This document shows positions 35,751 to 58,740 of a DNA stretch of 64,000 nt, piece after piece; the first letter of the stretch is position 1, and each line of letters starts with the position of its first letter. This stretch comes from a virus. The stretch covers positions 14,879 through 78,878 of IMG/VR virus record IMGVR_UViG_3300044568_003163. One strand, 5' to 3'. Made by a program: the position numbers and the translations under genes. Below the pieces are notes generated by a model that was given only the letters and a program-made list of their open reading frames with translations, had not been told where the DNA came from and made no database searches.

Positions 35751-35751
35751 G

Positions 35752-48714: not shown

Positions 48715-48797
48715 TGACCAAAGAGGGACTCGAACCCTCACGCTCAAAGAGCACCAGCTTCTTAGACTGGCGTGTCTACCAATTCCACCACTCGGCC
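48715..48797 (-). tRNA. tRNA, class II (long variable arm), Leu-like; anticodon loop CUAAGAA ambiguous
   Basis: T-arm GAGGGTTCGAGTCCCTC, D-arm GTGG-AATTGGTAG-ACAC (Leu-type), acceptor with G:U pairs. Confidence 0.55.
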
Positions 48798-48925
48798 GTA
48801 ATGAGCAATCCTATGGAATTACTGCAGTTTATCCAAAGGTCGTATATAGCTTGCAGACTAAGATTCTGCTGGATTTTCACCTTCATAAAGCTGGATATCA
48901 ACGACCCTTATCGCGATTCTCATTG

Positions 48926-48999
48926 TACCCGAGATGGGACTCGAACCCACACTGTACAGGGTTTAAGTCTGATGCCTCTTCCAATTGGGCTACCCGGGC
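48926..48999 (-). tRNA. tRNA, class-I-like, anticodon loop CUUAAAC (UAA) with weak anticodon stem
   Basis: T-arm GTGGGTTCGAGTCCCAT; paralog of 49276-49348. Confidence 0.45.
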
Positions 49000-49159
49000 A
49001 AATTAAAGAAGTAAGAAAATGAACTCCTTAACAGCTGAACGTTCAATAACTTTAAGAATCATTTTGCTTGTATCTCTAGGATTTGCAACTCCTATAAATT
49101 CACAAAATGCTTTTTGTTTATTCATTATTGTTCATTTCAATTTTGTTATTGCATTATTA

Positions 49160-49240
49160 GGAATAACGATACTATAGGACTCGAACCTATACCTTCCAGC
49201 TCGCTCGCCGGAATTCTACCAAATTAAACTAAATACCAAC
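49160..49240 (-). other. tRNA-like element with canonical T-arm but unresolved cloverleaf (possible pseudogene)
   Basis: ATAGGTTCGAGTCCTAT T-arm; no acceptor pairing found by eye. Confidence 0.25.
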
Positions 49241-49275
49241 CTTTTTATCTCAATAACAAAAGATGTCCTTCTTTG

Positions 49276-49348
49276 TACCTAAGGAGGGATTCGAACCCAC
49301 ACTGTCATGCTCCTAAGGCATGTGCCTCTTCCGTTGGGCTACTTAGGC
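49276..49348 (-). tRNA. tRNA, class-I-like with anticodon UAG (Leu codon CUA)
   Basis: acceptor GCCTAAG/CTTAGGT, anticodon arm CATGC-CTTAGGA-GCATG, T-arm GTGGGTTCGAATCCCTC. Confidence 0.55.
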
Positions 49349-49556
49349 AAATTGGTAAGTGATGGCCTACTTGTTACCATCTGTCTCTGTTTAGTTGCAA
49401 CCACTAATCCTGAATGTAGAGAACTTACCTTTTGTTTTATGTTAGCTAATAAACATTGTTTCTAATGTTATTAACATCATCTTTTTAATTTTTGTACATT
49501 ATAATATACATTAAGCCACAATATGACGTGTTTTGTATATTATAGTGTACATTTTG

Positions 49557-49629
49557 AGCTGACAATCAGGATCGAACTGATGACCTCTTCGATACCAACG
49601 AAGTGTTCTTCCAACTGAACTATGTCTGC
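49557..49629 (-). tRNA. tRNA-Thr (GGU)
   Basis: D GTTC-AGTTGGAA-GAAC, anticodon arm CTTCG-TTGGTAT-CGAAG, T-arm ATCAGTTCGATCCTGAT. Confidence 0.65.
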
Positions 49630-49649
49630 ATATTACAGGGTTGTTAATT

Positions 49650-49736
49650 ACCTCTTTCGAGGATTTCGGAGTTGAACCGATAGACAAAATTTCAAGTTTC
49701 GTGTTTAACCAATAGTTGTTTGCTGAAACAACCCTT
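49650..49736 (-). other. tRNA-like element (T-loop GGTTCAACTCC) with unresolved structure
   Basis: between two Thr tRNAs; contains hairpin GTTGTTTCAGCAAACAAC. Confidence 0.25.
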
Positions 49737-49739
49737 TTG

Positions 49740-49813
49740 AGCTGACAGTCAGGATCGAACTGACTCTGTTCCGGGTTACAAATCCGGTGCACCACCATTC
49801 ATGCGTTGCCAGC
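49740..49813 (-). tRNA. tRNA-Thr (UGU), tentative
   Basis: acceptor GCTGGCA/TGTCAGC, anticodon loop TTTGTAA, T-arm GTCAGTTCGATCCTGAC. Confidence 0.55.
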
Positions 49814-49823
49814 ATATGTTTCG

Positions 49824-49894
49824 TTGGGATACTAGGTTTCGAACCTAGGCGGACTGGCTCAAAACCAGTAATGCTACCGTTACATCATATCCCA
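49824..49894 (-). tRNA. tRNA-Gln (UUG)
   Basis: U1-A72 acceptor TGGGATA/TATCCCA, anticodon arm ACTGG-TTTTGAG-CCAGT, T-arm CTAGGTTCGAAACCTAG. Confidence 0.7.
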
Positions 49895-49900
49895 ATGTAG

Positions 49901-49971
49901 TTATCCGAGGTGGATTCGAACCACCAATGACTGCACCAAAAACAGTAGTGTTACCGTTACACTATCGGACA
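49901..49971 (-). tRNA. tRNA-Gln (UUG), second copy
   Basis: acceptor TGTCCGA/TCGGATA, anticodon arm ACTGT-TTTTGGT-GCAGT, T-arm GGTGGTTCGAATCCACC. Confidence 0.6.
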
Positions 49972-49972
49972 G

Positions 49973-50046
49973 TGACCATAATAGGATTCGAACCTATAAC
50001 CGCTGGTTTAGAAAACCAGTGCTCTATCCAATTGAGCTATATGGCC
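49973..50046 (-). tRNA. tRNA-Arg (UCU)
   Basis: D GCTC-AATTGGATA-GAGC, anticodon arm CTGGT-TTTCTAA-ACCAG, T-arm ATAGGTTCGAATCCTAT. Confidence 0.75.
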
Positions 50047-50117
50047 AATTAAGTTCTCCAACCCTGGAACTTATACATATCATCATTAAGCGGTCACATA
50101 GAATGTGAGATATGTTG

Positions 50118-50203
50118 AAGAGAAGATGGGACTCGAACCCACAAACCGAATTAACGGTTAACGGATTAGCAATCCGCTGCAGTACCATTATGCTTACTTC
50201 TCT
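50118..50203 (-). tRNA. tRNA-Ser (GCU), class II
   Basis: acceptor AGAGAAG/CTTCTCT, anticodon arm GCGGA-TTGCTAA-TCCGT, long variable arm, T-arm GTGGGTTCGAGTCCCAT. Confidence 0.75.
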
Positions 50204-50311
50204 ATAAAAAGTTAAAGGCAGAATTCCAAATCTGCATTTTTATTCTAAAACGAGAATAACGTGAGTTTTATCGATACGTCTATCGAGGCAATTATCACTA
50301 CTTTAACTTAA

Positions 50312-50401
50312 TGGAGGAGAGAGTGGGATTCGAACCCACGGAACGCTTTCACGCTCAATAGTTTTCAAGACTATCCTAATCAACCTCTCTAGCACCTCTC
50401 C
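50312..50401 (-). tRNA. tRNA-Ser (UGA), class II, CCA encoded
   Basis: parallels E. coli tRNA-Ser; anticodon arm ATAGT-CTTGAAA-ACTAT; variable arm TGAGCGTGAAAGCGTTC; 3' ...TCTCTCC-T-CCA. Confidence 0.75.
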
Positions 50402-50410
50402 ATTATTTGG

Positions 50411-50485
50411 GGTGGAAGACGGGACTCGAACCCGCGATCTCTAGAACCACAATCTAGCGCTTTAACCAACTAAGCTACAACCACC
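50411..50485 (-). tRNA. tRNA-His (GUG) with G-1
   Basis: anticodon arm CTAGA-TTGTGGT-TCTAG; extra 5' G opposite C73; two U:U mismatches in acceptor stem. Confidence 0.6.
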
Positions 50486-50496
50486 ATGTATAAAAC

Positions 50497-50540
50497 AAAA
50501 AAGCTCGATTCATTTGATAGAACCGAGCTTTGCAATTTAG
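50497..50540 (-). terminator. hairpin + T-run immediately upstream of tRNA-His (terminator/processing element)
   Basis: minus: AAGCTCGGTTCTATCAAATGAATCGAGCTTTTTTGTTTTAT. Confidence 0.45.
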
Positions 50541-50644
50541 TATTTATATTTTCACATAAGAACCATCACACTTCGGTACTGTTTTCAGATCTTGTTAGAT
50601 GCTGAAGCGACGTTAACGATAATGTACTTGAAGTTCTCATTGTT

Positions 50645-50715
50645 TGTAATTTATTATTTTTTATATATACTGTTATATGTCTAAAATTGCTGAGAGTTTC
50701 AAAAAACTTTCAATT
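50645..50715. repeat. conserved AT-rich element (copy 1 of 3) preceding tRNA sub-cluster
   Basis: tatatatactgttatatgtctaaaattgctgagagtttcaaaaaactttcaatttatttt; similar copies at 53225 and 56560. Confidence 0.5.
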
Positions 50716-50725
50716 TATTTTCTAG

Positions 50726-50822
50726 TGAAGACAATTGGGATCGAACCAATGGCACGCCTATGTTCCTTATCGATCATACCAATAAGTACTGAAGGTTGCT
50801 CTACCAACTGAGCTATATCTTC
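50726..50822 (-). tRNA. atypical 97-nt tRNA-like gene with ~24-nt insertion between D-arm and T-arm
   Basis: perfect acceptor GAAGATA/TGTCTTC, D-arm GCTC-AGTTGGTA-GAGC and T-arm ATTGGTTCGATCCCAAT but 46 nt where 22 expected. Confidence 0.4.
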
Positions 50823-50827
50823 ATTTG

Positions 50828-50898
50828 TAGCGGATTAAGGACTCGAACCTCGCCATTGGGTTATGAGCCCGATATGCTACCAATTACACTAAACCGCA
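50828..50898 (-). tRNA. tRNA-Met (CAU), initiator-like anticodon stem, irregular acceptor
   Basis: TCGGGCTCATAACCCAA anticodon arm as in fMet tRNA; 1:72 mismatch. Confidence 0.5.
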
Positions 50899-50900
50899 AG

Positions 50901-50998
50901 ATGACCTTAAGGATTCGAACCTTTAACTTGTTTCCTCTTTTAGTTTTGCAAACCTACTCAATTCTACCGTGCCCAATACACTATTGCCAATCGTCATT
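50901..50998 (-). other. tRNA-like element (~98 nt) with T-arm AAGGTTCGAATCCTT, unresolved
   Basis: T-loop motif; possible GCA anticodon loop TTGCAAA; no clean acceptor pairing. Confidence 0.25.
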
Positions 50999-51039
50999 TT
51001 CGAACATGACAGCCTTAAGTTAATTACTCTTAAGATTTG

Positions 51040-51111
51040 TAGTCCCACCGGGAATCGAACCCGACTTTTCAGGATGAAAACCTGATGACCTAACCGATAG
51101 TCGATAGGACC
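51040..51111 (-). tRNA. tRNA-Glu (UUC)
   Basis: D GACT-ATCGGTTA-GGTC, anticodon arm TCAGG-TTTTCAT-CCTGA, T-arm CGGGTTCGATTCCCG. Confidence 0.7.
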
Positions 51112-51152
51112 AATTAAGTTATATCAAATTCTCCCGCAGAGATACCGACCCA

Positions 51153-51260
51153 TTGCTGAGCCAGAGAGGACTTGAACCTCTGATTCTCAATAACTAATTT
51201 AAAAGAATTAAAGAGTAGAGCTCTTCAACGATTTCGGCATTTCAGCTGGATCTTTATGCC
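51153..51260 (-). other. tRNA-like element (T-arm AGAGGTTCAAGTCCTCT) with AT-rich insertion, unresolved
   Basis: no canonical acceptor pairing found by eye. Confidence 0.2.
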
Positions 51261-51295
51261 AACTTCCTAATCCTTAGTCCGTTTAATTCTTGTAG

Positions 51296-51369
51296 TATTA
51301 TGTACGGGACTCGAACCCGTGTTATCAACGTGAAAGGCTGACGTCCTAGACCAACTAGACGAACATAAC
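51296..51369 (-). tRNA. tRNA, probable Glu (UUC) second copy
   Basis: D CGTC-TAGTTGGTCTAG-GACG, anticodon loop CTTTCAC, T-arm ACGGGTTCGAGTCCCGT. Confidence 0.5.
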
Positions 51370-51373
51370 ATTT

Positions 51374-51586
51374 TTAAGCTTCTTCAGAGACAAGTCCTAA
51401 AACTTCTTCTCTGTAAATTTTATTCAATTCACTTACTTCAATATCGATATTCGTTTGTGGATATCGGTGAAGTAAAATCTTAACTAATCTGATTCGTTTC
51501 TCAGCCAAATCTTGATTAAAGTCCATTTCAATCATTGCATCACTTAAATGAGATTGAATTGCGATTGATAATTTGATAGTTTCCAT
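51374..51586 (-). CDS. hypothetical protein
   Basis: 70-aa ORF directly downstream of class-B cassette. Confidence 0.45.
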   Translation of the reverse strand: METIKLSIAIQSHLSDAMIEMDFNQDLAEKRIRLVKILLHRYPQTNIDIEVSELNKIYREEVLGLVSEEA

Positions 51587-51670
51587 AATGTGATTGTTTA
51601 ATTTTAATAAGTAAAACTAATCAATTTAATTGACATATGGAAATTATTTTTCAAAAAGTTATTAACAATT
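51587..51670 (-). promoter_or_regulatory. intergenic cassette class B
   Basis: minus: TTGTTAATAACTTTTTGAAAAATAATTTCCATATGTCAATTAAATTGATTAGTTTTACTTATTAAAATTAAACAATCACATT-ATG. Confidence 0.5.
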
Positions 51671-51674
51671 TTAA

Positions 51675-51850
51675 AATAAAAAGTTTGTCACCGGCACAGA
51701 TTGGTGAATACCCAAGTACAACCGAATGTACCCGATACCTTACTAACAAAATGAACGGATCTGTGTTTCCTGTATGCGGCAAGTGACCTCCTTCCTTGCT
51801 TGTGTTTCCGTATCGATGTGTGCGGCAACATACCATTTTGAGTTCAACAA
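51675..51850 (-). other. GC-richer non-coding segment with long-range complementarity (candidate structured ncRNA)
   Basis: no plausible ORF; CACAGAT (51695-51701) complementary to ATCTGTG (51769-51775). Confidence 0.25.
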
Positions 51851-51858
51851 ACTTCTTG

Positions 51859-51931
51859 TAGCGGGAGCAGGACTCGAACCTGCGACCTTTGGGTTATGAG
51901 CCCACTGAGCTACCAACTGCTCTATCCCGCA
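51859..51931 (-). tRNA. initiator tRNA-fMet (CAU)
   Basis: closely parallels E. coli tRNA-fMet: GAGC-AGTTGGTA-GCTC, GTGGG-CTCATAA-CCCAA, 1:72 mismatch. Confidence 0.7.
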
Positions 51932-51957
51932 ATATACCTTTTAAGTAGAACCATCAA

Positions 51958-52149
51958 CTATATTTCTGTTGATGATTCTAATTGTCTTAATTTTAAACCT
52001 TCTTCAATTGTTTGAATGATGTCCTCAATTATTTGAGCTCGCGTAACATCAAAGTTACCATTCATTCCATTCAAATCTTTTGCATCAATTGCAATAGATC
52101 CTACTGACTTACCGTCTTTCTGTAATTCAATTACTAATGTATCAAACAT
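51958..52149 (-). CDS. hypothetical small protein
   Basis: 63-aa ORF. Confidence 0.4.
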   Translation of the reverse strand: MFDTLVIELQKDGKSVGSIAIDAKDLNGMNGNFDVTRAQIIEDIIQTIEEGLKLRQLESSTEI

Positions 52150-52214
52150 AATATAGCTTTTTATTTAATTGTTTTATGCAATTTGAAATAAATTGTTTCT
52201 CTTCTTATTAACAT

Positions 52215-52673
52215 CTATCTACAGATTCTATCAGCTACATATGAAGCCGAGCATGCATCTGGTTTACATCTAGCGTTATAACCTAATGATTCTACATAAC
52301 CTAAAGCAGAACGCAGAATTGAATTAGATTGATACTTAGGGTCTGGATTAAAATCCAAATCAATAAATGCAGGTTTTTCAATATCATTAGCTTCAAGCCA
52401 TTGAGCTAATTCAACTGAATCTTCTACCTCTTTCCAAAGTCTAGTAAATCTATCTAAGATTCTAGGAATTGATTTACGAGAGTAGATAACGTGACCTCCT
52501 CGATTACCGTAATGTAAAACAATAACCATTGCGTAAATTGTATTTCTTCCAATATTTTGCGAATCTGAACCGATATACATTTTGATGTCTTTACCAGTTG
52601 CGAGTTTGTCCTTTAAATAAGGAATTAAGTCAATTACTTGACCGTTTGTTAACGATTGAAATTTCCGGTCCAT
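52215..52673 (-). CDS. hypothetical protein
   Basis: 152-aa ORF between tRNA sub-clusters. Confidence 0.5.
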   Translation of the reverse strand: MDRKFQSLTNGQVIDLIPYLKDKLATGKDIKMYIGSDSQNIGRNTIYAMVIVLHYGNRGGHVIYSRKSIPRILDRFTRLWKEVEDSVELAQWLEANDIEKPAFIDLDFNPDPKYQSNSILRSALGYVESLGYNARCKPDACSASYVADRICR

Positions 52674-52692
52674 GATTATTAAATTTATGTTA

Positions 52693-52764
52693 GAGGCGAG
52701 TATAGGATTCGAACCTATGTAACTGATTTTGCAGACCAGCGCCTAACCGCTCGGCCAACTCGCC
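52693..52764 (-). tRNA. tRNA-Cys (GCA)
   Basis: acceptor GGCGAGT/ACTCGCC, anticodon arm CTGGT-CTGCAAA-ATCAG, T-arm ATAGGTTCGAATCCTAT. Confidence 0.75.
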
Positions 52765-52769
52765 ATTTG

Positions 52770-52841
52770 TGACTCTAGAGAGACTCGAACTCCCATCTCC
52801 TGATCCGTAGTCAAGTGTTCTATCCATTGAACTATAGAGCC
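52770..52841 (-). tRNA. tRNA-Arg (ACG)
   Basis: D GTTC-AATGGATA-GAAC, anticodon arm CTTGA-CTACGGA-TCAGG. Confidence 0.75.
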
Positions 52842-52850
52842 ATTATTTTG

Positions 52851-52923
52851 TCGGGAAGACAGGACTCGAACCTGCGGCCTCATGCTCCCAAAGCACGCGA
52901 TCTACCAACTGATCTACTTCCCG
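52851..52923 (-). tRNA. tRNA-Pro (UGG)
   Basis: C1-G72 acceptor CGGGAAG/CTTCCCG, anticodon arm CGTGC-TTTGGGA-GCATG. Confidence 0.75.
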
Positions 52924-52969
52924 TGGCAGAGAGGCTTTTGAAGTGCCCTGCTAGTTCATCTTTTAATTT

Positions 52970-53044
52970 GTCGAATAGACAGGAATCGAACCTGCTAACT
53001 GATACGTCCAAGGTACCCGTGCTTAAAACCTTAGTCACTACTCG
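52970..53044 (-). tRNA. tRNA, probable Pro (UGG) second copy with irregular D-arm
   Basis: acceptor CGAGTAG/CTATTCG, anticodon loop CTTGGAC, T-arm GCAGGTTCGATTCCTGT. Confidence 0.45.
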
Positions 53045-53048
53045 TTTA

Positions 53049-53752: not shown

Positions 53753-53863
53753 CAGGAATGTAAGGAATCGAACCTTAGCATCTTCCGAGACAGGGAGTAA
53801 TTTATGCAGAATACAATCTTCGCAGATTGAGTTTTAAGCGTGCTACCATTACACCACATTCCT
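53753..53863 (-). tRNA. atypical 111-nt tRNA-like gene with ~38-nt insertion containing a GNRA hairpin
   Basis: perfect acceptor AGGAATG/CATTCCT, D GTGT-AATGGTA-GCAC, T-arm TAAGGTTCGATTCCTTA; 60 nt between D- and T-arms; inserted hairpin AATCTGCGAAGATT. Confidence 0.4.
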
Positions 53864-53869
53864 GTATTT

Positions 53870-53995
53870 TGTGGGCTCATATGGGCTCGAACCATAATCT
53901 CTTCCTAATGACATCCTACCATACTAAAAAGGAATCGAACCTTAGACTCATTATCGAGAAAGCGCTTTGCCAATTAAGCTAATCGCCCATGTAGT
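53870..53995 (-). other. two tRNA-like remnants (T-loops at 53885 and 53931) without complete cloverleafs
   Basis: TATGGTTCGAGCCCATA and TAAGGTTCGATTCCTT motifs; 5' half GGGCGAT-TA-GCTT-AATTGGCA-AAGC lacks matching 3' acceptor. Confidence 0.2.
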
Positions 53996-54127
53996 GAAGA
54001 ATCCTAGACTCGAACTAGGAATGTCAATTAAGACGCCGGTTTTACATCCTTTAAATTGCTGAATAAACACTTTGCACAGTGTTTGCCTTTTTGGACCGGA
54101 GCGTTTACCAATTCCGCCAATTCTTCA
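53991..54127 (-). other. 137-nt tRNA-like gene (class II, Tyr-like GUA loop) with ~46-nt internal insertion, tentative
   Basis: acceptor GAAGAAT/ATTCTTC, D GCGG-AATTGGTAA-ACGC, T-arm CTAGTTCGAGTCTAG; CCGGT...TGTAAA-ACCGG enclosing AACACTGTGCAAAGTGTT hairpin. Confidence 0.3.
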
Positions 54128-54481: not shown

Positions 54482-54555
54482 TAGCGAGGACCGGGATCGA
54501 ACCGGCGACCTTTGGTTTATGAATCCAATGTTACTACCAACTGAACTACCTCGCC
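54482..54555 (-). tRNA. tRNA with CAU anticodon (Ile2-lysidine or extra Met)
   Basis: acceptor GGCGAGG/CCTCGCT, anticodon loop TTCATAA, T-arm GCCGGTTCGATCCCGGT. Confidence 0.6.
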
Positions 54556-54594
54556 AAATTGTAAGTTTTGAATGGACTTACAACCATTGATAGA

Positions 54595-54825
54595 TTATTG
54601 GTGATGAGGAATATACTTTCCGTTCTTAACTCTAACTGCCAGTTTGGTCACGTTAAAATTCCAACAATCAAATGTACTTAATGCAGATCTTTGTTTTGCA
54701 AGACTAATGGCTTGCTTTTCTGCTTTTTCTCGACCTTCTTCCGTTGTTTCGACGAAAAAAGTGGGAGCCTGAACACCAGTCTTACTGGTAGGAACTACTC
54801 TCCAAATTCTCAAATTAGTAATCAT
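54595..54825 (-). CDS. hypothetical small protein
   Basis: 76-aa ORF. Confidence 0.4.
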   Translation of the reverse strand: MITNLRIWRVVPTSKTGVQAPTFFVETTEEGREKAEKQAISLAKQRSALSTFDCWNFNVTKLAVRVKNGKYIPHHQ

Positions 54826-54905
54826 AAGTTTTAGCTAAGCTAGACCTATGAGGAATTGTACGATTTTGTTGACATTTGATTTATATTTTTTTATTATATG
54901 TTCGA

Positions 54906-55352
54906 TTAAGCCAGAGATTCAATAACCTCTTTTACTAATTTTGTATCGGCAAGACCTGGAAATTTCTTAACGAAAGCACCCATAGTCATACCTATTAATT
55001 TTTGTTTGTTTAATTCTAAAACAGAACCGAGTAAAACATTAACTTCAGTTTCAATTTCAGCTCTAGTCATTTGCTTTGGCAAGTACTTTTCAATAACACC
55101 TAATTCATTAGCTTCAGATTCCACTAAATCGAATCGACCAGCTTTTGTAAATTCTTCAATAGATTGTCTACGTTGTTTGATTGTAGAAATTACTGCATTT
55201 AGAACTAACTCATCAGTAAGTGGACCAGCATGCTTTGCCTTTTCAGCATCTTGGATTTTTGCCTTTAATCCACTTAATGCATTCTTCGCAATCGCGTTTT
55301 TCTCTTTGAATGCTACTATATAGTCAGCATTGATTGTTTCTCTTAAATTCAT
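54906..55352 (-). CDS. GatB/YqeY-domain protein
   Basis: 148 aa; LTDELVLNAVISTIKQRRQSIEEFTKAGRFDLVESEANELGVIEKYLPKQM matches YqeY pattern (LS--E-L----K---QRRES-E-F-KAGR-DL---E--EL-I---YLP). Confidence 0.8.
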   Translation of the reverse strand: MNLRETINADYIVAFKEKNAIAKNALSGLKAKIQDAEKAKHAGPLTDELVLNAVISTIKQRRQSIEEFTKAGRFDLVESEANELGVIEKYLPKQMTRAEIETEVNVLLGSVLELNKQKLIGMTMGAFVKKFPGLADTKLVKEVIESLA

Positions 55353-55368
55353 CTTTACTAATTTTTAG

Positions 55369-55449
55369 TGGGCAACAGTGGACTCGAACCACTCCCGTGA
55401 GGACCAGATTTACAGTCTGGCTGCCGTATCCGAACGACTTTTGCGGCCC
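55369..55449 (-). tRNA. tRNA-Tyr (GUA), class II
   Basis: anticodon arm CCAGA-CTGTAAA-TCTGG and variable arm TCCTCACGGGAG as in E. coli tRNA-Tyr; T-arm AGTGGTTCGAGTCCACT; imperfect acceptor. Confidence 0.6.
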
Positions 55450-55458
55450 ATTATATTG

Positions 55459-55532
55459 TGACTCCTCTGGGACTCGAACCCAGGACTCCCTCATTAAAAG
55501 TGAGGTGCTCTAGCCGACTGAGCTAAGAAGTC
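55459..55532 (-). tRNA. tRNA-Lys (UUU), second copy
   Basis: acceptor GACTTCT/AGGAGTC, anticodon arm CCTCA-CTTTTAA-TGAGG, T-arm CTGGGTTCGAGTCCCAG. Confidence 0.75.
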
Positions 55533-55542
55533 ATTGTAATAG

Positions 55543-55616
55543 CAGTCCTAACGGAATTCGAATCCGCAATCTCTTCCGTGACAGGGAAGCGTCATACGCC
55601 AATATGCTGTAGGACT
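55543..55616 (-). tRNA. tRNA-Asp (GUC)
   Basis: acceptor AGTCCTA/TAGGACT, anticodon arm CTTCC-CTGTCAC-GGAAG, T-arm GCGGATTCGAATTCCGT. Confidence 0.7.
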
Positions 55617-55703
55617 ATATAAAAATTATTTAGTTTAAGCTCCTTTAAACCATGTAATTTCAGGGAGCTATTTGAGCTTATGCATGGAACTAAATAATAA
55701 TTG

Positions 55704-55777
55704 CCGAGATGACGGGACTCGAACCCGTGACCTTCGCCGTGACAGGGCGACATTGTAACCAACTCTACTACACCTCG
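55704..55777 (-). tRNA. tRNA-Asp (GUC), second copy
   Basis: anticodon arm TCGCC-CTGTCAC-GGCGA, T-arm ACGGGTTCGAGTCCCGT. Confidence 0.65.
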
Positions 55778-55836
55778 ATTTCTAATTTCACGCTCACACT
55801 ATGCAGTTCTATAAATTAGTAACAGTCTCATCTGGG

Positions 55837-55910
55837 CTCTCCTGACTGGATTCGAACCAGTAACCCTCACCTTAACAGGGTGTCGCTCTAACCGTTGGAG
55901 CTACAGGAGA
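55837..55910 (-). tRNA. tRNA-Asn (GUU), second copy
   Basis: acceptor TCTCCTG/CAGGAGA, anticodon loop CTGTTAA, T-arm ACTGGTTCGAATCCAGT. Confidence 0.7.
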
Positions 55911-55914
55911 ATAT

Positions 55915-55995
55915 TTGATGTTTTAATTATAAGACAAATATAAACAATGTCATTGACATATGAAAATATTTAATCAAATAGTTATTAACAATTTG
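55915..55995 (-). promoter_or_regulatory. intergenic cassette class A inside tRNA array (between tRNA-Ala and tRNA-Asn)
   Basis: minus: TTGTTAATAACTATTTGATTAAATATTTTCATATGTCAATGACATTGTTTATATTTGTCTTAT. Confidence 0.5.
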
Positions 55996-56067
55996 TGGAG
56001 CTACCGGGATTCGAACCCGGAATAACAGAGTGCAAGTCTATCGTGATGCCAATTTCACTATAGCCCC
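55996..56067 (-). tRNA. tRNA-Ala (UGC) with G3:U70
   Basis: acceptor GGGGCTA/TAGCTCC (G3:U70), anticodon arm ATAGA-CTTGCAC-TCTGT, T-arm CCGGGTTCGAATCCCGG. Confidence 0.8.
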
Positions 56068-56077
56068 ATTAAATTTG

Positions 56078-56152
56078 TAGGAGATGACGGAATCGAACCG
56101 ACGACCTTTTGCGTGTAAAACAAACGCTCTAAACCAACTGAGCTAATCTCCT
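56078..56152 (-). tRNA. tRNA-Val (UAC)
   Basis: acceptor AGGAGAT/ATCTCCT, anticodon loop TTTACAC, T-arm GTCGGTTCGATTCCGTC. Confidence 0.8.
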
Positions 56153-56158
56153 AAATTG

Positions 56159-56232
56159 TAGGTAATATGAGACTCGAACTCATAACCTCCTCGGTATCAG
56201 CGAGGTGCTCTAACCAATTGAGCTAACTACCT
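56159..56232 (-). tRNA. tRNA-Ile (GAU)
   Basis: anticodon arm CCTCG-CTGATAC-CGAGG, T-arm ATGAGTTCGAGTCTCAT. Confidence 0.8.
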
Positions 56233-56239
56233 GTGGCAG

Positions 56240-56310
56240 CACGAATGGAAGGATTCGAACCTTCATCGACGGTTTTGGAGACCGGCATGCTACCATTGCA
56301 CCACACTCGT
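56240..56310 (-). tRNA. tRNA-Trp (CCA)
   Basis: anticodon loop CTCCAAA, T-arm GAAGGTTCGAATCCTTC. Confidence 0.75.
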
Positions 56311-56317
56311 ATTTTAG

Positions 56318-56390
56318 TGGTAAGGGACGGGATCGAACCGTCATCATCGGATTTTCAGTCCGCTGCATAGACCAACTTTGCTACCTCACC
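56318..56390 (-). tRNA. tRNA-Phe (GAA)
   Basis: acceptor GGTGAGG/CCTTACC, anticodon loop CTGAAAA, T-arm GACGGTTCGATCCCGTC. Confidence 0.8.
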
Positions 56391-56392
56391 AA

Positions 56393-56435
56393 AAACAAAA
56401 AACCTCTGAATTTTTGAAGATTCAGAGGTTAAAGT
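56393..56435 (-). terminator. hairpin + T-run immediately upstream of tRNA-Phe (terminator/processing element)
   Basis: minus: AACCTCTGAATCTTCAAAAATTCAGAGGTTTTTTGTTTTTGG. Confidence 0.45.
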
Positions 56436-56559
56436 ATATTGTATTAAAATATCGATACTACATCCGAATCACATTGCTATCCACATAATCATTCCCGGCA
56501 AACTTAATCGCCCAGTCAAAATTCATGTTAATATTTATGTTAGTAGTAGGTATCATTTT

Positions 56560-56640
56560 ATTGATGTTTTAATATTGTTTTATATATACTGTTATATGTT
56601 CTAAATTTCAAAAAGTTTCAACTTATTTTTATATTATTTT
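56560..56640. repeat. conserved AT-rich element (copy 3 of 3)
   Basis: ttttatatatactgttatatgttctaaatttcaaaaagtttcaacttatttttatat. Confidence 0.5.
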
Positions 56641-56648
56641 AATCTTAG

Positions 56649-57212
56649 TTAGTCCCACCAAGAATCATATTCTTTAGCGAAGATTTCCATTGCTAAAGCA
56701 AAGTCTTTACTTCTATTCAAATGAGCAATTTTCATACCCATTATGTATTCTTTGTTCTTTTTTCTCAGCTGAGCAGGTGTATATCGCTCATCATTCCTAT
56801 CCATCAATCTGTGGCAATCTGGACGATCTTCGCAAGGAATAGTATAGTAATCTGACTTACCCCATTTAGCGTCATGCTTTTCTCTATATGGCTCGTCGTA
56901 GTTATCTTCATGCACTTTCGTTAATAACTCTAAACATTCAGTCATCGTTCGAATTTGCTTTTCGCGATTCTCATCGACTGTATGGCCATGGTCTTTAACG
57001 TATTTGATATGAGCTTTCAACTTAAAAAGAATTGGTTCCATAATGTAATGGTTATCCCAATCTCTATCTCGCCATACAATAGGCATCCATCGAATTATAT
57101 TCTTAATTCCTCTCACAAAATCCTTGGAAGGAATCTTGACGTATTCCTTCCAATAAAATTTTGCATTGTCTACCGCTTCTTCAACGTAGAACTTAATTCG
57201 TTCGTTTATCAT
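56649..57212 (-). CDS. hypothetical protein
   Basis: 187-aa ORF downstream of RNA ligase gene. Confidence 0.5.
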   Translation of the reverse strand: MINERIKFYVEEAVDNAKFYWKEYVKIPSKDFVRGIKNIIRWMPIVWRDRDWDNHYIMEPILFKLKAHIKYVKDHGHTVDENREKQIRTMTECLELLTKVHEDNYDEPYREKHDAKWGKSDYYTIPCEDRPDCHRLMDRNDERYTPAQLRKKNKEYIMGMKIAHLNRSKDFALAMEIFAKEYDSWWD

Positions 57213-57226
57213 ATTGATGTTATTGA

Positions 57227-58543
57227 TTAACCTTCAGCTTCTTCGGTATCAATTACTCCAGAATCTTTTACGATTCCTTCAAGTACTTTGAATTCGAAAG
57301 ACTTGAATTTGAATGTTTTGTTTACCAAACCACCTTCAATTCTTACACAAACTCCTTCTTTGATATGTCTAGTATCTAAGATAGATGGACCAGTTCCGAA
57401 TGTTTCGACGGTGTTGCTGAAATATTCTCGCAAATCTCTATCATCGAATTTATGAGTGATTGCTTCTAATTCGTTTAAGGTTATCGTAGCAACATGTGGT
57501 ACAGTTTTTACACCTAATTCATTACAACGTTTTACAACATCATTCCAAGCATAATCGATAGATTGACCATCTTCATTAGCAAATGTCATACGGTAAACAT
57601 AAACCTCAGATTGAGTAGGTTCACAACCATAAGAATAAGCCATAGACTTACCGTATTGTTTCGTAAACTCTTTATCACCCATTTTGGTTGTATCAACAGA
57701 TGGCATAATTGCAGCTCCTGTAGATTCGTAACCTACAATTTCAAAATAAACGGTTTCACCTTTTCTTAAGTTACCTTTGAATAAGTTCATTGCTTTATCT
57801 CGGATGGTTGGGTCATGGAATTGATTTGCGGATTTTGATTCTCCTAAAACAACTCTACGAGTACCATTCAAATAAGCCCATTCTTTGTCGTTGATAGCTA
57901 ATCCAAATTTAGTAACAAGTTTTTCTAACCAACCTAATTCTCTAGTCATTTGAACGTGACCAATACGACCTGAAGTACCGTGAAGTTTTTCAGTAATAAT
58001 GATGTGTTGACCCTTTTCAAATTCGTGGATACTCTTACCAAAGTGTCCGGTATCAAAATGTTCTTTGAACATTACAGAAGATCTAGAAACTCGGGTTTTC
58101 TTACCTTGATTTTCTCTAGCAATTTTAGCCGTATTTGGATTTACATATTTGTTACAGATAGGTACACCTTTCCATTCGTCAAATTCAAATCCTTCTACAT
58201 CTAAACCAGTTACCATAATGAATCCAAAGTAATGTAATGGAACCCAGAAACCATCAGAGATTTCACCTCTAAATTTTTGAGCTCTTACTCTTCGGTTTGC
58301 ATCGAACATTCCACCTTTCTCATCTTTTCTAGCATTTAACTCGGCATCACGATAAAGGTTGTTTGCTTTACAGAACTCATCGGATAACTGACCATCAGAT
58401 GGAAAGTAAACTCCTAAATGTCCTTCTAAAGAATCTAAACCAATTACTACTTGATTACCGTGACAAGTTGCTAATTGAACTTTGTCTGCGTTAGGATGTG
58501 GTCTCACGTTTGTCAACCTAGTGACGATTGCATTGTATGCCAT
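57227..58543 (-). CDS. ATP-dependent RNA ligase-like nucleotidyltransferase (Rnl2/Rnl5-like)
   Basis: 438 aa; motif I IIITEKLHGTSGRIG (cf. T4 Rnl2 EKIHGTN, recalled); ~170-aa N-terminal domain. Confidence 0.55.
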   Translation of the reverse strand: MAYNAIVTRLTNVRPHPNADKVQLATCHGNQVVIGLDSLEGHLGVYFPSDGQLSDEFCKANNLYRDAELNARKDEKGGMFDANRRVRAQKFRGEISDGFWVPLHYFGFIMVTGLDVEGFEFDEWKGVPICNKYVNPNTAKIARENQGKKTRVSRSSVMFKEHFDTGHFGKSIHEFEKGQHIIITEKLHGTSGRIGHVQMTRELGWLEKLVTKFGLAINDKEWAYLNGTRRVVLGESKSANQFHDPTIRDKAMNLFKGNLRKGETVYFEIVGYESTGAAIMPSVDTTKMGDKEFTKQYGKSMAYSYGCEPTQSEVYVYRMTFANEDGQSIDYAWNDVVKRCNELGVKTVPHVATITLNELEAITHKFDDRDLREYFSNTVETFGTGPSILDTRHIKEGVCVRIEGGLVNKTFKFKSFEFKVLEGIVKDSGVIDTEEAEG

Positions 58544-58549
58544 GATTTC

Positions 58550-58628
58550 GTATTTTTAATTTATAAGACAAATATAATCAATGTCTTCGACACTTGAAAA
58601 TAATTTCTCATTAAGTTATTAACAATTA
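58550..58628 (-). promoter_or_regulatory. intergenic cassette class A upstream of RNA ligase gene
   Basis: minus: TTGTTAATAACTTAATGAGAAATTATTTTCAAGTGTCGAAGACATTGATTATATTTGTCTTAT. Confidence 0.5.
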
Positions 58629-58740
58629 GTAGTCAGAACAGGATTCGAACCTGTATGGTGTTACCTAGAGTACTCAATACAGAGCGGTAAATCGGTTACG
58701 AACCATTACTCTTAGCGTCTTCCAATTCCGCCACCTGACT
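58629..58740 (-). other. isolated ~110-nt tRNA-like gene (class II Leu-like D-arm) with extra internal sequence, next to RNA ligase gene
   Basis: acceptor AGTCAGG/TCTGACT, D GCGG-AATTGGAAG-ACGC, T-arm ACAGGTTCGAATCCTGT; anticodon arm not resolved. Confidence 0.3.

What the first reader, a model, noticed from the sequence alone, without database searches (positions are those of the whole stretch)
48715..58740. Several over-long tRNA-like genes with internal insertions (possible intron-containing or permuted tRNAs) beside an RNA ligase
Seen in sequence: within and near the tRNA array, at least six T-arm-containing genes are too long for tRNAs. Their approximate spans are 50726-50822 (97 nt), 50901-50998, 51153-51260, 53753-53863 (111 nt), 53991-54127 (137 nt) and 58629-58740 (110 nt). 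Several have perfect acceptor stems, D-arms and T-arms, but carry 24 to 46 extra nucleotides between the D-arm and T-arm; one insertion is a GNRA-capped hairpin, AATCTGCGAAGATT. Inference: these insertions are too short for group I introns. They could be small protein-spliced introns, unusual variable arms, or decoy or regulatory tRNA-like RNAs. The genome also encodes an ATP-dependent RNA-ligase-like enzyme (57227-58543), two calcineurin-type phosphoesterases and HAD phosphatases, and the 110-nt tRNA-like gene sits directly next to the ligase gene. This suggests a tRNA cleavage and repair or splicing module.
Basis: partly seen in the sequence, partly recalled or inferred. Interest (0 to 1): 0.65.

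Follow-up and report, generated by a model that had tools for sequence, protein, structure and literature searches.

The report
Phage tRNA-shaped RNAs lacking anticodon arms
The over-long "tRNAs" in this uncultured phage's tRNA cluster are real tRNA-shaped RNA genes whose anticodon arm is replaced by variable inserts; two belong to large phage-wide RNA families I could not find described, and none is tied to the RNA ligase next door.

Summary
Four of the six elements are complete tRNA frames that are too long: A 50726-50822, D 53753-53863, E 53995-54126 and F 58630-58740. Each has a 7-bp acceptor stem, a D arm and a T arm, and the extra sequence replaces or expands the anticodon arm. B is a diverged member of a different conserved RNA family. 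C is only a fragment. F belongs to a phage-specific family found in at least 120 IMG/VR contigs, which fall into 104 unrelated DNA groups. Its acceptor stem, tRNA-Leu-type D arm and T arm are nearly invariant, while the middle varies from about 20 to 130 nt. None of 85 members tested has a canonical anticodon arm. The B family (35 contigs) has a structure supported by covariation. E and A show compensatory changes against their homologues, so they are selected RNAs. Only E could yield a plausible anticodon loop (CC|GUAAA) if spliced. ARAGORN's intron calls are almost as frequent on shuffled inserts. The ligase link is incidental: 0 of 120 F loci hold a ligase homologue, and 1 of 64 ligase loci holds F. 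The closest characterised analogue is T4 RNAC, whose function is still unknown. Best reading: these are non-decoding tRNA-like RNAs matured with the array. Their function is inferred, not shown.

The parts
50726..50822 (-). Element A. A 97-nt tRNA-like RNA: acceptor GAAGATA/TGTCTTC, D arm GCTC-AGTTGGTA-GAGC, T arm ATTGG-TTCGATC-CCAAT. The anticodon arm is reduced to a 3-bp outer stem. Inside it are an internal loop and the hairpin CTTAT[11 nt]ATAAG.
   Evidence: Rfam tRNA 44.4 bits, with 13 model positions replaced by 34 nt. Found by my detector. The homologue L001:7276-7373 has two compensatory changes in the acceptor stem and one in the anticodon stem (C-G to U-A), and its hairpin loop differs.
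50901..51012 (-). Element B. A diverged member of the 'B family': a 5' hairpin GTCAT-GTTCGAAA-ATGAC, then GATTGGC, a D-arm-like segment, GAGTA plus a variable hairpin, and the T arm AAAGG-TTCGAAT-CCTTA. The acceptor helix seen in the family is broken in this copy. The conserved leader AATTAACTTAAGGCTG lies just upstream, at about 51011-51026.
   Evidence: The family motif occurs in 35 IMG/VR contigs, one copy each. The consensus structure has 21 pairs, 12 of them with compensatory changes; 98.3% of cells are paired and 0 of 500 shuffles reach that. B is 100% identical over 95 nt in L001, where the neighbouring sequence is about 92% identical.
51157..51252 (-). Element C. A partial tRNA-like fragment: T arm AGAGG-TTCAAGT-CCTCT and a 6/7 acceptor GATCCAG/CTGGCTC, with no D arm. 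Probably a degenerate remnant.
   Evidence: Read directly from the sequence. Missed by my detector and by Rfam. The whole segment is absent from L001, where about 45 nt separate the two tRNA-Glu genes.
53753..53863 (-). Element D. A 111-nt tRNA-like RNA: acceptor AGGAATG/CATTCCT, D arm GTGT-AATGGTA-GCAC, T arm TAAGG-TTCGATT-CCTTA. Only the outer 3 bp of the anticodon stem (CUU/AAG) remain, around a 51-nt insert that includes the hairpin CAATCT-GCGA-AGATTG (53815-53828).
   Evidence: Rfam tRNA 45.8 bits. Found by my detector. No homologue was found: BLAST against all fetched loci gave nothing, and its 3' end has no exact match in IMG/VR.
53865..53990 (-). Region G, between E and D. It holds two T-arm hairpins (TAAGG-TTCGATT-CCTTT and ATGG-TTCGAGC-CCAT) and a D-arm-like segment, but no complete acceptor stem. 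It may be a degenerate tRNA-like element plus an upstream hairpin for D.
   Evidence: Read directly from the sequence. A weak partial Rfam tRNA hit at 53928-53981, 20.7 bits.
53995..54126 (-). Element E. A 132-nt class II tRNA-like RNA: acceptor GAAGAAT/ATTCTTC, A73, tRNA-Leu-type D arm GCG-GAATTGGTAAA-CGC, anticodon stem CCGGT/ACCGG, variable arm GTC-TTAATT-GAC, T arm CCTAG-TTCGAGT-CTAGG. A conserved 44-nt insert lies between the loop nucleotides CC and GUAAA.
   Evidence: Found by my detector. Against the homologue L003:6520-6648, 11 of 34 predicted pairs are compensatory. All 7 acceptor pairs are changed, and there is one change each in the D stem, anticodon stem, variable arm and T stem. 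The insert keeps AAACACUGU, UUCAGCAAUUU and GUAAAACCG. ARAGORN -i calls Tyr(GTA) in both homologues, but with different splice points.
58630..58740 (-). Element F. A 111-nt member of the 'F family': acceptor AGTCAGG/TCTGACT, A73, Leu-type D arm GCG-GAATTGGAAGA-CGC, T arm ACAGG-TTCGAAT-CCTGT. In place of the anticodon arm is an irregular long hairpin (AGAG/CTCT, GTAA/TTAC, GGTT-CGT-AACC), followed by a 25-nt variable region.
   Evidence: Rfam tRNA 31.1 bits, with all 17 anticodon-arm positions replaced. The family is described. The L001 copy has 1 mismatch in 97 nt plus a 30-nt hairpin inserted in the D loop.
57227..58543 (-). ATP-dependent RNA ligase, with an N-terminal OB domain and a nucleotidyltransferase domain. 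It is adjacent to F but not linked to the tRNA-like RNAs.
   Evidence: Pfam PF21189 (8e-8) plus PF09414 (4e-7); PHROG 968 'RNA ligase'. A weak profile match of the OB domain to Naegleria gruberi RNA ligase, E 0.02. Co-occurrence with F elsewhere is 0 of 120 and 1 of 64.
58540..58627 (-). Promoter-like 88-nt repeat between F and the ligase start codon. It suggests that F and the ligase belong to separate transcription units.
   Evidence: Four copies, at 48568, 51583, 55906 and 58540. The sequence contains TATATTTG, which matches the TAnnTTTG box. Reading that box as a Bacteroidota promoter element rests on my own knowledge.

Best explanation
The over-long genes are non-decoding tRNA-like RNAs, not tRNAs awaiting splicing.

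Each keeps the parts of a tRNA that make the acceptor/T-arm minihelix and the D/T elbow. The anticodon arm is replaced or extended by hairpins that vary in sequence and length.

The elements lie on the same strand as the tRNA genes. A, B, D and E sit among them, while F lies beyond the ligase. A discriminator base followed by C comes after A, E and F. From this I infer that they are transcribed with the array, cut out by RNase P and the 3'-end enzymes, and given a CCA end like ordinary tRNAs.

F, and probably E, keep the elements that bacterial LeuRS is reported to need: A73, U8-A14, G18/G19 with U55/C56, and a Leu-type D arm. They lack any anticodon. They could therefore be bound, and perhaps charged, by LeuRS, but they cannot decode.

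The most likely role is a stable tRNA-shaped carrier. The invariant top half would provide maturation, stability and recognition by a conserved partner. The variable arm would be the specific module.

Shown here:
- the anatomy of each element;
- conservation and covariation;
- membership of the F and B families;
- absence of anticodon arms;
- absence of any linkage to the ligase.

Inferred only: processing, charging and the carrier function.
For: Anatomy. Four elements are complete tRNA frames, and shuffled sequence yields none. The Rfam alignments place the extra sequence in the anticodon arm.

Selection on the RNAs.
- E shows 11 compensatory pairs against L003.
- A shows 3 compensatory pairs against L001.
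- F has 1 mismatch in 97 nt and B has 0 in 95 nt against L001, where the surrounding DNA is about 91% identical.

The F family.
These loci plus those fetched earlier gave 164 copies, of which 141 distinct elements (66-181 nt) have a 5' acceptor partner.
- The carriers fall into 104 DNA groups with no other similarity.
- The 5' acceptor and D arm are invariant even though they were not part of the search pattern.
- The same 23-mer from this phage's true tRNA-Leu(UAA) has 0 hits.
- Only 18 MAG contigs among 185,579 species genomes carry the F 23-mer.
- Variants with compensated acceptor or T stems exist.
- 0 of 85 members have a canonical anticodon arm.
- 50 of 79 members have a 5-bp closing stem at the anticodon-stem position, against 37 +/- 4 in shuffles.
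- Members sit among tRNAs on the same strand, and 132 of 145 have A73, nearly all followed by C.

The B family. 35 contigs carry it, and covariation supports the structure, with 0 of 500 shuffles reaching the observed values.

LeuRS recognition. For bacterial LeuRS, A73 and the tertiary core are critical and the anticodon arm is dispensable for aminoacylation (PMC2377443).

Precedent. T4 RNAC is a 139-nt RNA in the T4 tRNA cluster with a T arm and an acceptor-like stem.
Against: - There is no expression or end-mapping data of any kind.
- The function of the variable arm is unknown. It has no shared motif, only a weak folding z-score of -0.9, and no antisense target within its own locus.
- F members were collected with an exact 3' pattern, so invariance of that end follows from the search itself.
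- The invariance could reflect frequent horizontal transfer rather than a sequence-specific partner.
- E keeps a full anticodon stem, and both homologues could yield a CCGUAAA loop if the insert were removed.
- D has no homologue, so selection on it is untested.
- C and G look like decay products.
- No partner protein emerged from the neighbouring genes.
Confidence: 0.5

Rival explanations
1. They are intron-containing tRNA genes. A protein endonuclease would cut out the insert, and the phage RNA ligase, helped by phosphoesterase or HAD healing enzymes, would join the halves into working tRNAs.
For: - E keeps a 5-bp anticodon stem. In both homologues, conserved CC lies 5' of the insert and GUAAA lies 3' of it, which would give a 7-nt loop with anticodon GUA and A37.
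- E is class II, as bacterial tRNA-Tyr is.
- Lak megaphages were reported to carry 'enigmatic introns' in tRNAs, including Tyr(GTA) (bioRxiv 10.1101/356790).
- The phage encodes a ligase, two metallophosphoesterases and two HAD_SAK_2 proteins.
Against: - A, D and F have no exon halves that could rebuild an anticodon arm, and 0 of 85 F members do.
- ARAGORN calls introns in 81 of 142 real F members and in 66 of 142 with shuffled middles, and the assigned isotypes are scattered.
- E's spliced loop would have C33 instead of the near-universal U33. ARAGORN's own splice points differ between the two homologues.
- E's discriminator base differs between homologues (A versus G).
- I could not draw a bulge-helix-bulge motif for E by inspection.
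- No endonuclease or kinase appeared among the annotated neighbours.
- The E insert is more conserved in sequence than the exon stems, which is unusual for a passive intron.
- The ligase and the RNAs do not co-occur elsewhere.
Confidence: 0.12
2. They are decoys or sponges. Their tRNA-shaped top half would soak up a host factor that attacks or senses tRNA acceptor ends or elbows, such as toxins that modify the 3' end, or LeuRS itself. The middle would matter little.
For: - Only the acceptor stem, D arm and T arm are invariant, while the middle is free to vary in sequence and length.
- Several copies occur per genome, for example at least 7 within 5 kb in L082, which would raise the dose.
- The sequence-level invariance of the acceptor stem suggests a sequence-specific binding partner.
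- The family is confined to phages.
Against: - The middles are conserved, with compensatory changes, within subfamilies: the L123/L156/L143/L190 group, and the D-loop hairpin module shared by L001 and L142.
- Long middles persist despite pressure on phage genome size.
- No defence system aimed at this scaffold is known.
- Nothing here tests binding.
Confidence: 0.2
3. They are decaying duplicates of tRNA genes, that is pseudogenes picking up insertions. At most they are kept as RNase P/RNase Z processing signals for the array transcript.
For: - C and G are incomplete.
- C is an insertion/deletion difference relative to L001.
- D has no homologue.
- B's acceptor helix is broken in this window.
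- tRNA-like modules come and go between close relatives: L001:1967-2067 is an exact extra module.
- The hairpin loop of A in the window contains UGGUAU, resembling the Thr(GGU) anticodon loop of the window's own tRNA-Thr.
Against: - E, A and the B family keep their helices through compensatory changes.
- F and B are more conserved than the flanking genes.
- The F scaffold is invariant across 104 unrelated phage groups, whereas genuine tRNA-Leu genes in the same loci vary freely.
- Acceptor stems in A, D, E and F are perfect.
Confidence: 0.13

Closest known systems
Bacteriophage T4 RNAC (species 1 RNA, rnaC; NC_000866 70908-71046)
   Same: It is encoded inside a phage tRNA cluster on the tRNA strand. 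It is about 139 nt long. It ends in a canonical T arm (CCGGG-UUCGAAU-CCCGG) followed by an acceptor-like 3' strand that pairs with the 5' end (CGAUUCG/CGUUUCG), enclosing about 100 nt. Its function is still unknown (PMC3014915; PMC9697503).
   Different: I saw no recognisable D arm and no sequence resemblance by eye. It is a single gene in T4-like phages, not a multi-copy family with an invariant scaffold. Homology was not tested formally.
'Enigmatic introns' in Lak megaphage tRNAs (Devoto et al., bioRxiv 10.1101/356790)
   Same: These are phage tRNA genes 'substantially larger than expected', with inserts conserved across cohorts, and they include a Tyr(GTA) case. One insert is itself predicted to look like a tRNA. 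That parallels the second T-arm-like hairpins inside some F-family middles and element E.
   Different: The Lak inserts were interpreted as introns from tRNAscan-SE's eukaryotic mode, and their mechanism is unknown. Here most elements cannot regain an anticodon arm. I did not have the Lak sequences to compare.
Intron-containing tRNAs of archaea and eukaryotes (endonuclease plus ligase) and bacterial tRNA group I introns
   Same: The insert lies in the anticodon region of a tRNA frame. An RNA ligase gene is present in the genome.
   Different: There is no bulge-helix-bulge motif, no canonical 37/38 insertion position and no endonuclease gene. The inserts of 24-51 nt are far too short for group I introns, and Rfam gave no intron or ribozyme match. 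The exon halves do not rebuild an anticodon arm, except possibly in E.
Engineered 'tRNA scaffold' for expressing recombinant RNA (Ponchon and Dardel; from my own knowledge)
   Same: The acceptor stem, D arm and T arm are kept. The anticodon arm is replaced by an arbitrary RNA, which is then processed and stabilised like a tRNA. This is exactly the architecture of the F family.
   Different: That scaffold is a laboratory design. No natural counterpart was found in my searches, and a carrier function for the F family is not demonstrated.
tmRNA and YrlA (bacterial Y RNA-like) tRNA mimics
   Same: They are non-decoding RNAs that keep a tRNA-like acceptor/T-arm module.
   Different: The window has its own canonical tmRNA at 35749-36126. 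In YrlA the tRNA-like module is permuted, with its ends in the Ro-binding stem (my own knowledge). The Rfam YrlA model gave only sub-threshold hits on ordinary tRNAs: 19-23 bits against a threshold of 69.
Phage tRNA repair systems (T4 Pnkp + Rnl1; DraRnl/NgrRnl-type Rnl5 ligases)
   Same: The window has a ligase with an N-terminal OB domain plus a nucleotidyltransferase domain. It also has metallophosphoesterase and HAD_SAK_2 'RNA repair' phosphatase domains, in a phage with a large tRNA array.
   Different: No polynucleotide kinase was identified. The repair genes are scattered across 45-60 kb of the window. There is no co-occurrence with the tRNA-like RNAs.

Membership tests
Canonical decoding tRNA | 7-bp acceptor stem, D arm and T arm with a T-psi-C-type loop | tested here: met
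   Met for A, D, E and F. Not met for C, which has no D arm, or for B, whose acceptor helix is broken.
Canonical decoding tRNA | 5-bp anticodon stem closing a 7-nt loop with U33 and a purine at 37; total length about 72-93 nt | tested here: not met
   The Rfam alignments replace 11-17 anticodon-arm positions by 34-51 nt in A, D and F. E has 51 nt between the strands of its anticodon stem. 0 of 85 F-family members have a canonical arm.
Protein-spliced intron-containing tRNA (archaeal/eukaryal type) | Removing one internal segment restores a canonical anticodon stem-loop | tested here: not met
   Impossible for A, D and F. For E it is possible only as CC|GUAAA with C33, and the predicted splice points are inconsistent between homologues. 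ARAGORN's intron calls are no better than on shuffled inserts.
Protein-spliced intron-containing tRNA (archaeal/eukaryal type) | A bulge-helix-bulge motif at the exon-intron junctions, and a splicing endonuclease gene | tested here: inconclusive
   I could not draw a bulge-helix-bulge motif for E by inspection. The RNAalifold structure instead shows a 7-nt one-sided bulge. No endonuclease domain appeared among 20 neighbouring ORFs scanned with Pfam. The rest of the genome is unknown.
Group I intron in a bacterial tRNA gene | A self-splicing intron of at least about 200 nt with the P1-P9 core | tested here: not met
   The inserts are 24-51 nt. There was no Intron_gpI or ribozyme hit in the permissive Rfam scan of 48500-59000.
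Permuted or split tRNA gene | The 3' half is encoded upstream of the 5' half, or the halves lie at separate loci | tested here: not met
   All four frames run in the order acceptor 5' strand, D arm, insert, T arm, acceptor 3' strand.
F family (defined here): tRNA-Leu-type scaffold RNA | 5' AGUCAGG-UG-GCGGAAU(U)GGUAGACGC and 3' UACAGG-UUCGAAU-CCUGU-CCUGACU-A, with a non-canonical middle | tested here: met
   Window F matches, with two differences: GGAAGA in the D loop, and U66 giving a G-U pair. E shares the D-arm type, A73 and the class II layout, but has different, covarying stems. It is therefore at most a distant relative.
B family (defined here) | A 5' hairpin with a GUUCGAAA loop, a 7-bp acceptor-like helix, the D arm GUGU-AAAGGC-GCAC, GGAGUA plus a variable hairpin plus GAAAGGGGAC, and the T arm AAGG-UUCGAAU-CCUU | tested here: inconclusive
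   Window B has the hairpin, the leader, a D-arm-like segment, GAGUA, a variable hairpin and the T arm. Its acceptor helix accounts for most of the unpaired cells in the alignment.
T4 RNAC-type stable RNA | Encoded in a phage tRNA cluster; a T arm plus an acceptor-like stem enclosing a long non-tRNA segment | tested here: met
   The architecture was compared directly with the T4 sequence. Homology, stability and RNase P processing were not tested.
tRNA-Leu identity set for bacterial LeuRS | [quoted passage not shown] | tested here: inconclusive
   The sequence elements are present in the F scaffold: A73 in 132 of 145 members, U8, the GAAUUGGUAGA D loop and the UUCGAAU T loop. Variable-arm geometry and actual charging cannot be tested with these tools.
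Ligase-linked tRNA repair or splicing module | Conserved genomic association between the RNA ligase and the tRNA-like RNA genes | tested here: not met
   0 of 120 F-carrying loci hold a ligase homologue. 1 of 64 ligase loci (L001, the nearest relative) holds F. A promoter-like repeat separates F from the ligase.
Rnl5 (DraRnl/NgrRnl) RNA ligase | An N-terminal OB domain followed by an adenylyltransferase domain | tested here: inconclusive
   Pfam PF21189 OB domain at residues 6-103 and PF09414 at residues 180-412, both just above their cut-offs. The profile match to the NgrRnl OB domain reaches only E 0.02. phmmer found nothing.

The most novel reading that the evidence does not exclude
The F and B elements may represent a new class of phage non-coding RNA. 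They would be natural 'tRNA scaffolds' in which an invariant tRNA-Leu-like top half drives maturation, stability and recognition by a conserved partner. That top half might be chargeable by LeuRS, but it cannot decode. The scaffold would display interchangeable hairpin modules in the anticodon-arm position and in the D loop. Phages of freshwater bacteria, probably Bacteroidota, would carry up to about nine different versions and use them as a modular RNA toolkit in phage-host or phage-phage conflict.
Probability: 0.3. Interest if true: 0.85.

Novelty: new variant of a known kind. Interest (0 to 1): 0.68.

Why it matters
Phage tRNA arrays are usually read as codon-usage or anti-defence supplements, and anything that tRNA finders reject is ignored or labelled a pseudogene or an 'intron'. 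This window points to a different picture.

- A sizeable share of the genes in such arrays are tRNA-shaped RNAs that cannot decode.
- One type has a scaffold that is invariant in sequence across at least 104 otherwise unrelated phage groups, while genuine tRNA-Leu genes in the same fetched loci vary freely.
- That degree of constraint implies a specific, conserved molecular partner that has not been identified.
- It also offers a route into the 50-year-old question of what T4 RNAC-type RNAs do, and into the 'enigmatic tRNA introns' of megaphages.
- If the scaffold-plus-cargo reading is right, it would be a natural version of the engineered tRNA scaffold and a source of stable RNA modules.

Tried and rejected
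- **ARAGORN intron mode.** It calls Thr, Tyr, 'Stop', Gln and Lys for the candidates. It also calls introns in 66 of 142 F elements with shuffled middles, so I rejected it as evidence.
- **Ribozymes, group I introns and other Rfam families.** A permissive scan of 48500-59000 found nothing beyond tRNA.
- **Close relatives among cultured phages.** None were found. Only tRNA-sized or generic T-arm hits appeared.
- **A host tRNA origin for the F scaffold.** Only 18 MAG contigs carry it and no bacterial tRNA does. One of those contigs places it next to terminase genes.
- **A shared motif in the F middles.** None was found; the top k-mers were leftover D-arm sequence.
- **Strong folding of the middles.** The mean z-score is only -0.9.
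- **Antisense targets within each element's own locus.** No excess over shuffles.
- **A conserved neighbouring protein.** The best cluster is present in 11 of 120 loci.
- **Ligase linkage.** Rejected.
- **More homologues.** For E, a pattern search found only the L003 contig. For D there were 0 hits. For F's own middle, only L001 and L132 matched, plus one chance hit in coding sequence.
- **A formal covariation test of the F scaffold.** Not run, because my detector selects for pairing, which would make the test circular.
- **PDB match for the ligase with a single sequence.** None.
- **Literature searches for a prior description of such families.** Nothing direct was found in the open-access library. 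Subscription-only papers were not searched.

Full report
**1. What the window is**

The window comes from an uncultured tailed phage. It encodes tail fibre proteins, an NAD-dependent DNA ligase and a tmRNA at 35749-36126. It has no close DNA relative among 50,697 deposited phage genomes.

On the minus strand, ARAGORN finds 35 tRNA genes between 48714 and 56390. Rfam adds a few more.

**2. Checking the observation**

I wrote a plain detector. It requires a 5-bp T stem with a TTCRANN loop, directly followed by a 7-nt strand that pairs 7/7 with a strand 60-170 nt upstream. That upstream strand must be followed, after 2 nt, by a 3-4-bp D stem whose loop contains GG.

- In the window it finds 22 hits of normal tRNA length, plus exactly four longer than 95 nt: A (96 nt plus discriminator), D (110), E (131) and F (110).
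- It finds nothing in 50 block-shuffles of the window.
- The Rfam tRNA model matches A, D and F from position 1 to 71 above its gathering score. It does so by skipping the anticodon arm: 13, 11 and 17 model positions are replaced by 34, 51 and 43 nt.
- The gene order is the normal one, so nothing is permuted.
- B and C are weaker. C has a T arm and a 6/7 acceptor but no D arm, and the whole segment is missing from the nearest relative. B is discussed in section 6.

**3. Relatives of the window**

I used the ligase protein to fetch 13 viral loci and 51 metagenome loci. A further 5 loci came from the YqeY-like protein encoded inside the array. Only L001 (ligase 91% identical) and L003 (71% identical) share the array.

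- *A versus L001.* The D and T arms are identical. Two acceptor pairs and one anticodon-stem pair are changed on both sides. The loop of the inner hairpin CTTAT[..]ATAAG is entirely different.
- *E versus L003.* 11 of 34 predicted pairs are compensatory. All seven acceptor pairs are changed, and there is one change each in the D stem, anticodon stem, variable arm and T stem. Blocks of the insert are identical: AAACACTGT, TTCAGCAATTT and GTAAAACCG.
- *F versus L001.* There is 1 mismatch in 97 nt. B has 0 mismatches in 95 nt. The surrounding DNA is about 91% identical.

These are selected RNAs with tRNA-like helices.

**4. The F family**

L068 held two elements with F's ends but unrelated middles. 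I therefore searched IMG/VR for F's T arm plus acceptor 3' strand, CAGGTTCGAATCCTGTYCTGACT.

These loci plus those fetched earlier gave 164 copies, up to seven within 5 kb.
- The copies give 141 distinct elements of 66-181 nt.
- The 5' part was not in the search pattern, yet it is also nearly invariant: AGTCAGG-TG-GCGGAAT(T)GGTAGACGC. That is an acceptor strand plus a D arm of the type seen in this phage's own tRNA-Leu(AAG).
- 132 of 145 elements have A73, nearly always followed by C, as the window's normal tRNAs do.
- The 120 carrier loci fall into 104 groups with no other DNA similarity.
- As a control, the equivalent 23-mer of the window's genuine tRNA-Leu(UAA) has no match in IMG/VR. Genuine tRNA-Leu genes in the same loci have freely covarying acceptor stems.
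- In 185,579 species genomes the F 23-mer occurs in only 18 MAG contigs. Many are assigned to freshwater Bacteroidota, and one places it beside terminase genes.
- The family is absent from cultured phages.

**5. What the F middle is**

- None of 85 members with a recognisable D arm has a 5-bp stem plus a 7-nt U33/R37 loop at the anticodon position; 0.25 were expected from shuffles.
- 50 of 79 non-redundant middles do start with a 5-bp stem that closes an arm at that position, against 37 +/- 4 in shuffles. The arm encloses a median of 28 nt and is followed by about 15 nt.
- There is no shared sequence motif and only weak excess folding.
- There is no antisense match within the element's own locus.
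- Within subfamilies the middle is conserved, with compensatory changes. One example is GYGU/ACRC in L123/L156/L143/L190.
- A hairpin module inserted in the D loop (GCTTATARTGTGAGAAATCCTGYTATAACGA) is shared by two elements with unrelated middles, again with a compensatory change.
- A second T-arm-like hairpin occurs in 5 of 119 middles, against 0.19 expected.
- Diverged scaffolds with compensated stems exist, such as AGCCAAG/CTTGGCT, AGCAAGG/CCTTGCT and GACCGAG/CTTGGTC. My detector selects for pairing, so I did not treat this as an independent test.
- E shares the D-arm type, A73 and the class II layout, so it may be a distant relative.

**6. The B family**

B's T arm led to another family. 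The motif TATGGTGTAAWGGYGCACAG occurs in 35 IMG/VR contigs, once each, and several of these contigs also carry F elements.

The consensus runs as follows: a leader, a hairpin with a GUUCGAAA loop, a 7-bp acceptor-like helix, an invariant D arm, GGAGUA plus a variable hairpin plus GAAAGGGGAC, and a T arm.

RNAalifold predicts 21 pairs, 12 of them with compensatory changes. 98.3% of cells are paired. None of 500 shuffles reaches any observed measure, and versions with the partners slid by 1-3 columns pair at only 34-55%.

Window B has all the parts, but its acceptor helix is broken.

**7. Introns and the ligase**

- ARAGORN in intron mode of 142 F elements. It also of 142 when the middles are shuffled, and the isotypes are scattered. 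Its calls for A, D, E and F therefore carry little weight.
- No ribozyme or group I intron matched in Rfam.
- E is the only candidate for splicing. Removing the 44-45 nt between the conserved CC and GUAAA would leave the loop CCGUAAA, with anticodon GUA and A37 but C33, in both homologues. This recalls the Tyr(GTA) 'enigmatic introns' reported in Lak megaphages.
- Several points count against splicing of E. U33 would be lost. The discriminator base differs between homologues. The insert is more conserved than the exon stems. I could find no bulge-helix-bulge motif.
- The ligase has an OB domain plus a nucleotidyltransferase domain (PF21189, PF09414), with a weak profile match to the Naegleria RNA ligase OB domain.
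- The window also encodes two metallophosphoesterases, two HAD_SAK_2 'RNA repair' phosphatases and two RNase T-type exonucleases. A tRNA repair capacity is therefore plausible.
- However, none of the 120 F loci holds a ligase homologue, and only L001 among 64 ligase loci holds F. A promoter-like repeat also lies between F and the ligase. The adjacency is incidental.

**8. Mechanism**

What is shown is the anatomy, the selection on the RNAs, the family membership and the absence of anticodon arms.

From the shared strand and the discriminator-plus-C that follows A, E and F, I infer that these RNAs are cut out and given a CCA end like tRNAs.

The F scaffold keeps the elements reported as critical for bacterial LeuRS: A73, U8-A14, G18-U55 and G19-C56. 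The anticodon arm is dispensable for aminoacylation (PMC2377443). Binding or charging by LeuRS is therefore possible, but decoding is not.

The sequence-level invariance points to a specific partner, which I could not identify from gene neighbourhoods.

I favour a stable tRNA-shaped carrier with a variable specificity arm. A decoy for factors that target tRNA ends is the main rival. Decay products explain C and G, and possibly D.

**9. Comparison with known systems**

The closest characterised analogue is T4 RNAC (species 1 RNA). It is 139 nt long, lies in the T4 tRNA cluster, and has a canonical T arm and an acceptor-like stem around about 100 nt. Its function is still unknown.

Over-long tRNA-like genes in phage tRNA clusters are therefore not a new kind of thing. 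What I could not find described is a multi-copy, phage-wide family with an invariant tRNA-Leu-type scaffold and interchangeable middles, or the B family. My literature search covered open-access papers only.

Noticed in passing
window 35749-36126 (-): A full-length tmRNA gene (Rfam RF00023, 68 bits, model positions 1-374). The phage carries its own trans-translation RNA in addition to the tRNA array.
   Followed up: no
window 48568-48626, 51583-51670, 55906-55993, 58540-58627: Four copies of a promoter-like repeat of about 60-88 nt. Read on the minus strand it ends ...TTGATTATATTTGTCTTATAAA. It contains a TAnnTTTG box, which from my own knowledge is typical of Bacteroidota promoters. The repeats divide the array into transcription units and hint at the host phylum.
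   Followed up: partly
window 50492-50531, 53049-53088, 56392-56431: Three copies of a terminator-like hairpin followed by a T run on the minus strand (AAAGCTCG...CGAGCTTTTTTGTTTT). One lies immediately upstream of the first tRNA, tRNA-Phe.
   Followed up: no
window 53865-53990 (-): The spacer between E and D holds two further T-arm hairpins and a D-arm-like segment, but no acceptor stem. It may be a decayed tRNA-like gene, or an upstream hairpin for D like the 5' hairpin of the B family.
   Followed up: partly
window 49166-49238 and 49740-49813 (-): Two odd tRNAs of normal length. One has an 8-nt anticodon loop (ARAGORN 'tRNA-???', agcg). The other is seen only by Rfam (37 bits) and by relaxed ARAGORN settings, as Thr-TGT.
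   Followed up: no
L001:1967-2067: In the nearest relative, an extra 101-nt tRNA-like element (acceptor AGCTATG/CATAGCT, good T arm, no anticodon arm) is inserted exactly after F. The window lacks it. tRNA-like modules are gained and lost as precise units.
   Followed up: partly
L001:1838-1868 and L142 (168-nt F-family element): The same 31-nt hairpin module (GCTTATARTGTGAGAAATCCTGYTATAACGA) is inserted at the same D-loop position in two F-family elements with unrelated middles, with a compensatory A-U to G-C change. Other members (L097, L126, L178) carry different hairpins at that position.
   Followed up: partly
L116:13030-13101 (-): A canonical tRNA-Lys(UUU), with the loop CUUUUAA, that has the same AGTCAGG/CCTGACT acceptor stem and ACAGG/CCTGT T stem as the F family but a class I D arm. 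This may be a clue to the origin of the scaffold.
   Followed up: no
window 54906-55352 and 52215-52673 (-): Protein genes embedded in the tRNA array: a free-standing YqeY/GatB-tail-like protein (PF09424, 2e-31) and a PF04308 RNase H-like protein (2e-22). From my own knowledge, YqeY-type domains bind tRNA.
   Followed up: no
window 45143-47391 (-): A cluster of a metallophosphoesterase (45143-45787) and two HAD_SAK_2 'Swiss Army Knife RNA repair' phosphatase-domain proteins (45771-46385 and 46903-47391), just downstream of the tRNA array. No kinase was identified.
   Followed up: partly
L027:12045-12157 and 12856-12981; L067-L069 (about 7429-7562 and 9289-9439); L068:9518-9637: Further over-long tRNA-like elements of 112-151 nt, with other acceptor stems, in more distant phages. 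The phenomenon is not limited to the F and B scaffolds.
   Followed up: no
L197:1598-3444 and about 7114: On a 214-kb contig of a Chitinophagia MAG, an F-family element lies a few kb from the terminase small and large subunit genes. This is either a prophage or a mis-binned phage contig, and it gives a possible host lead.
   Followed up: partly
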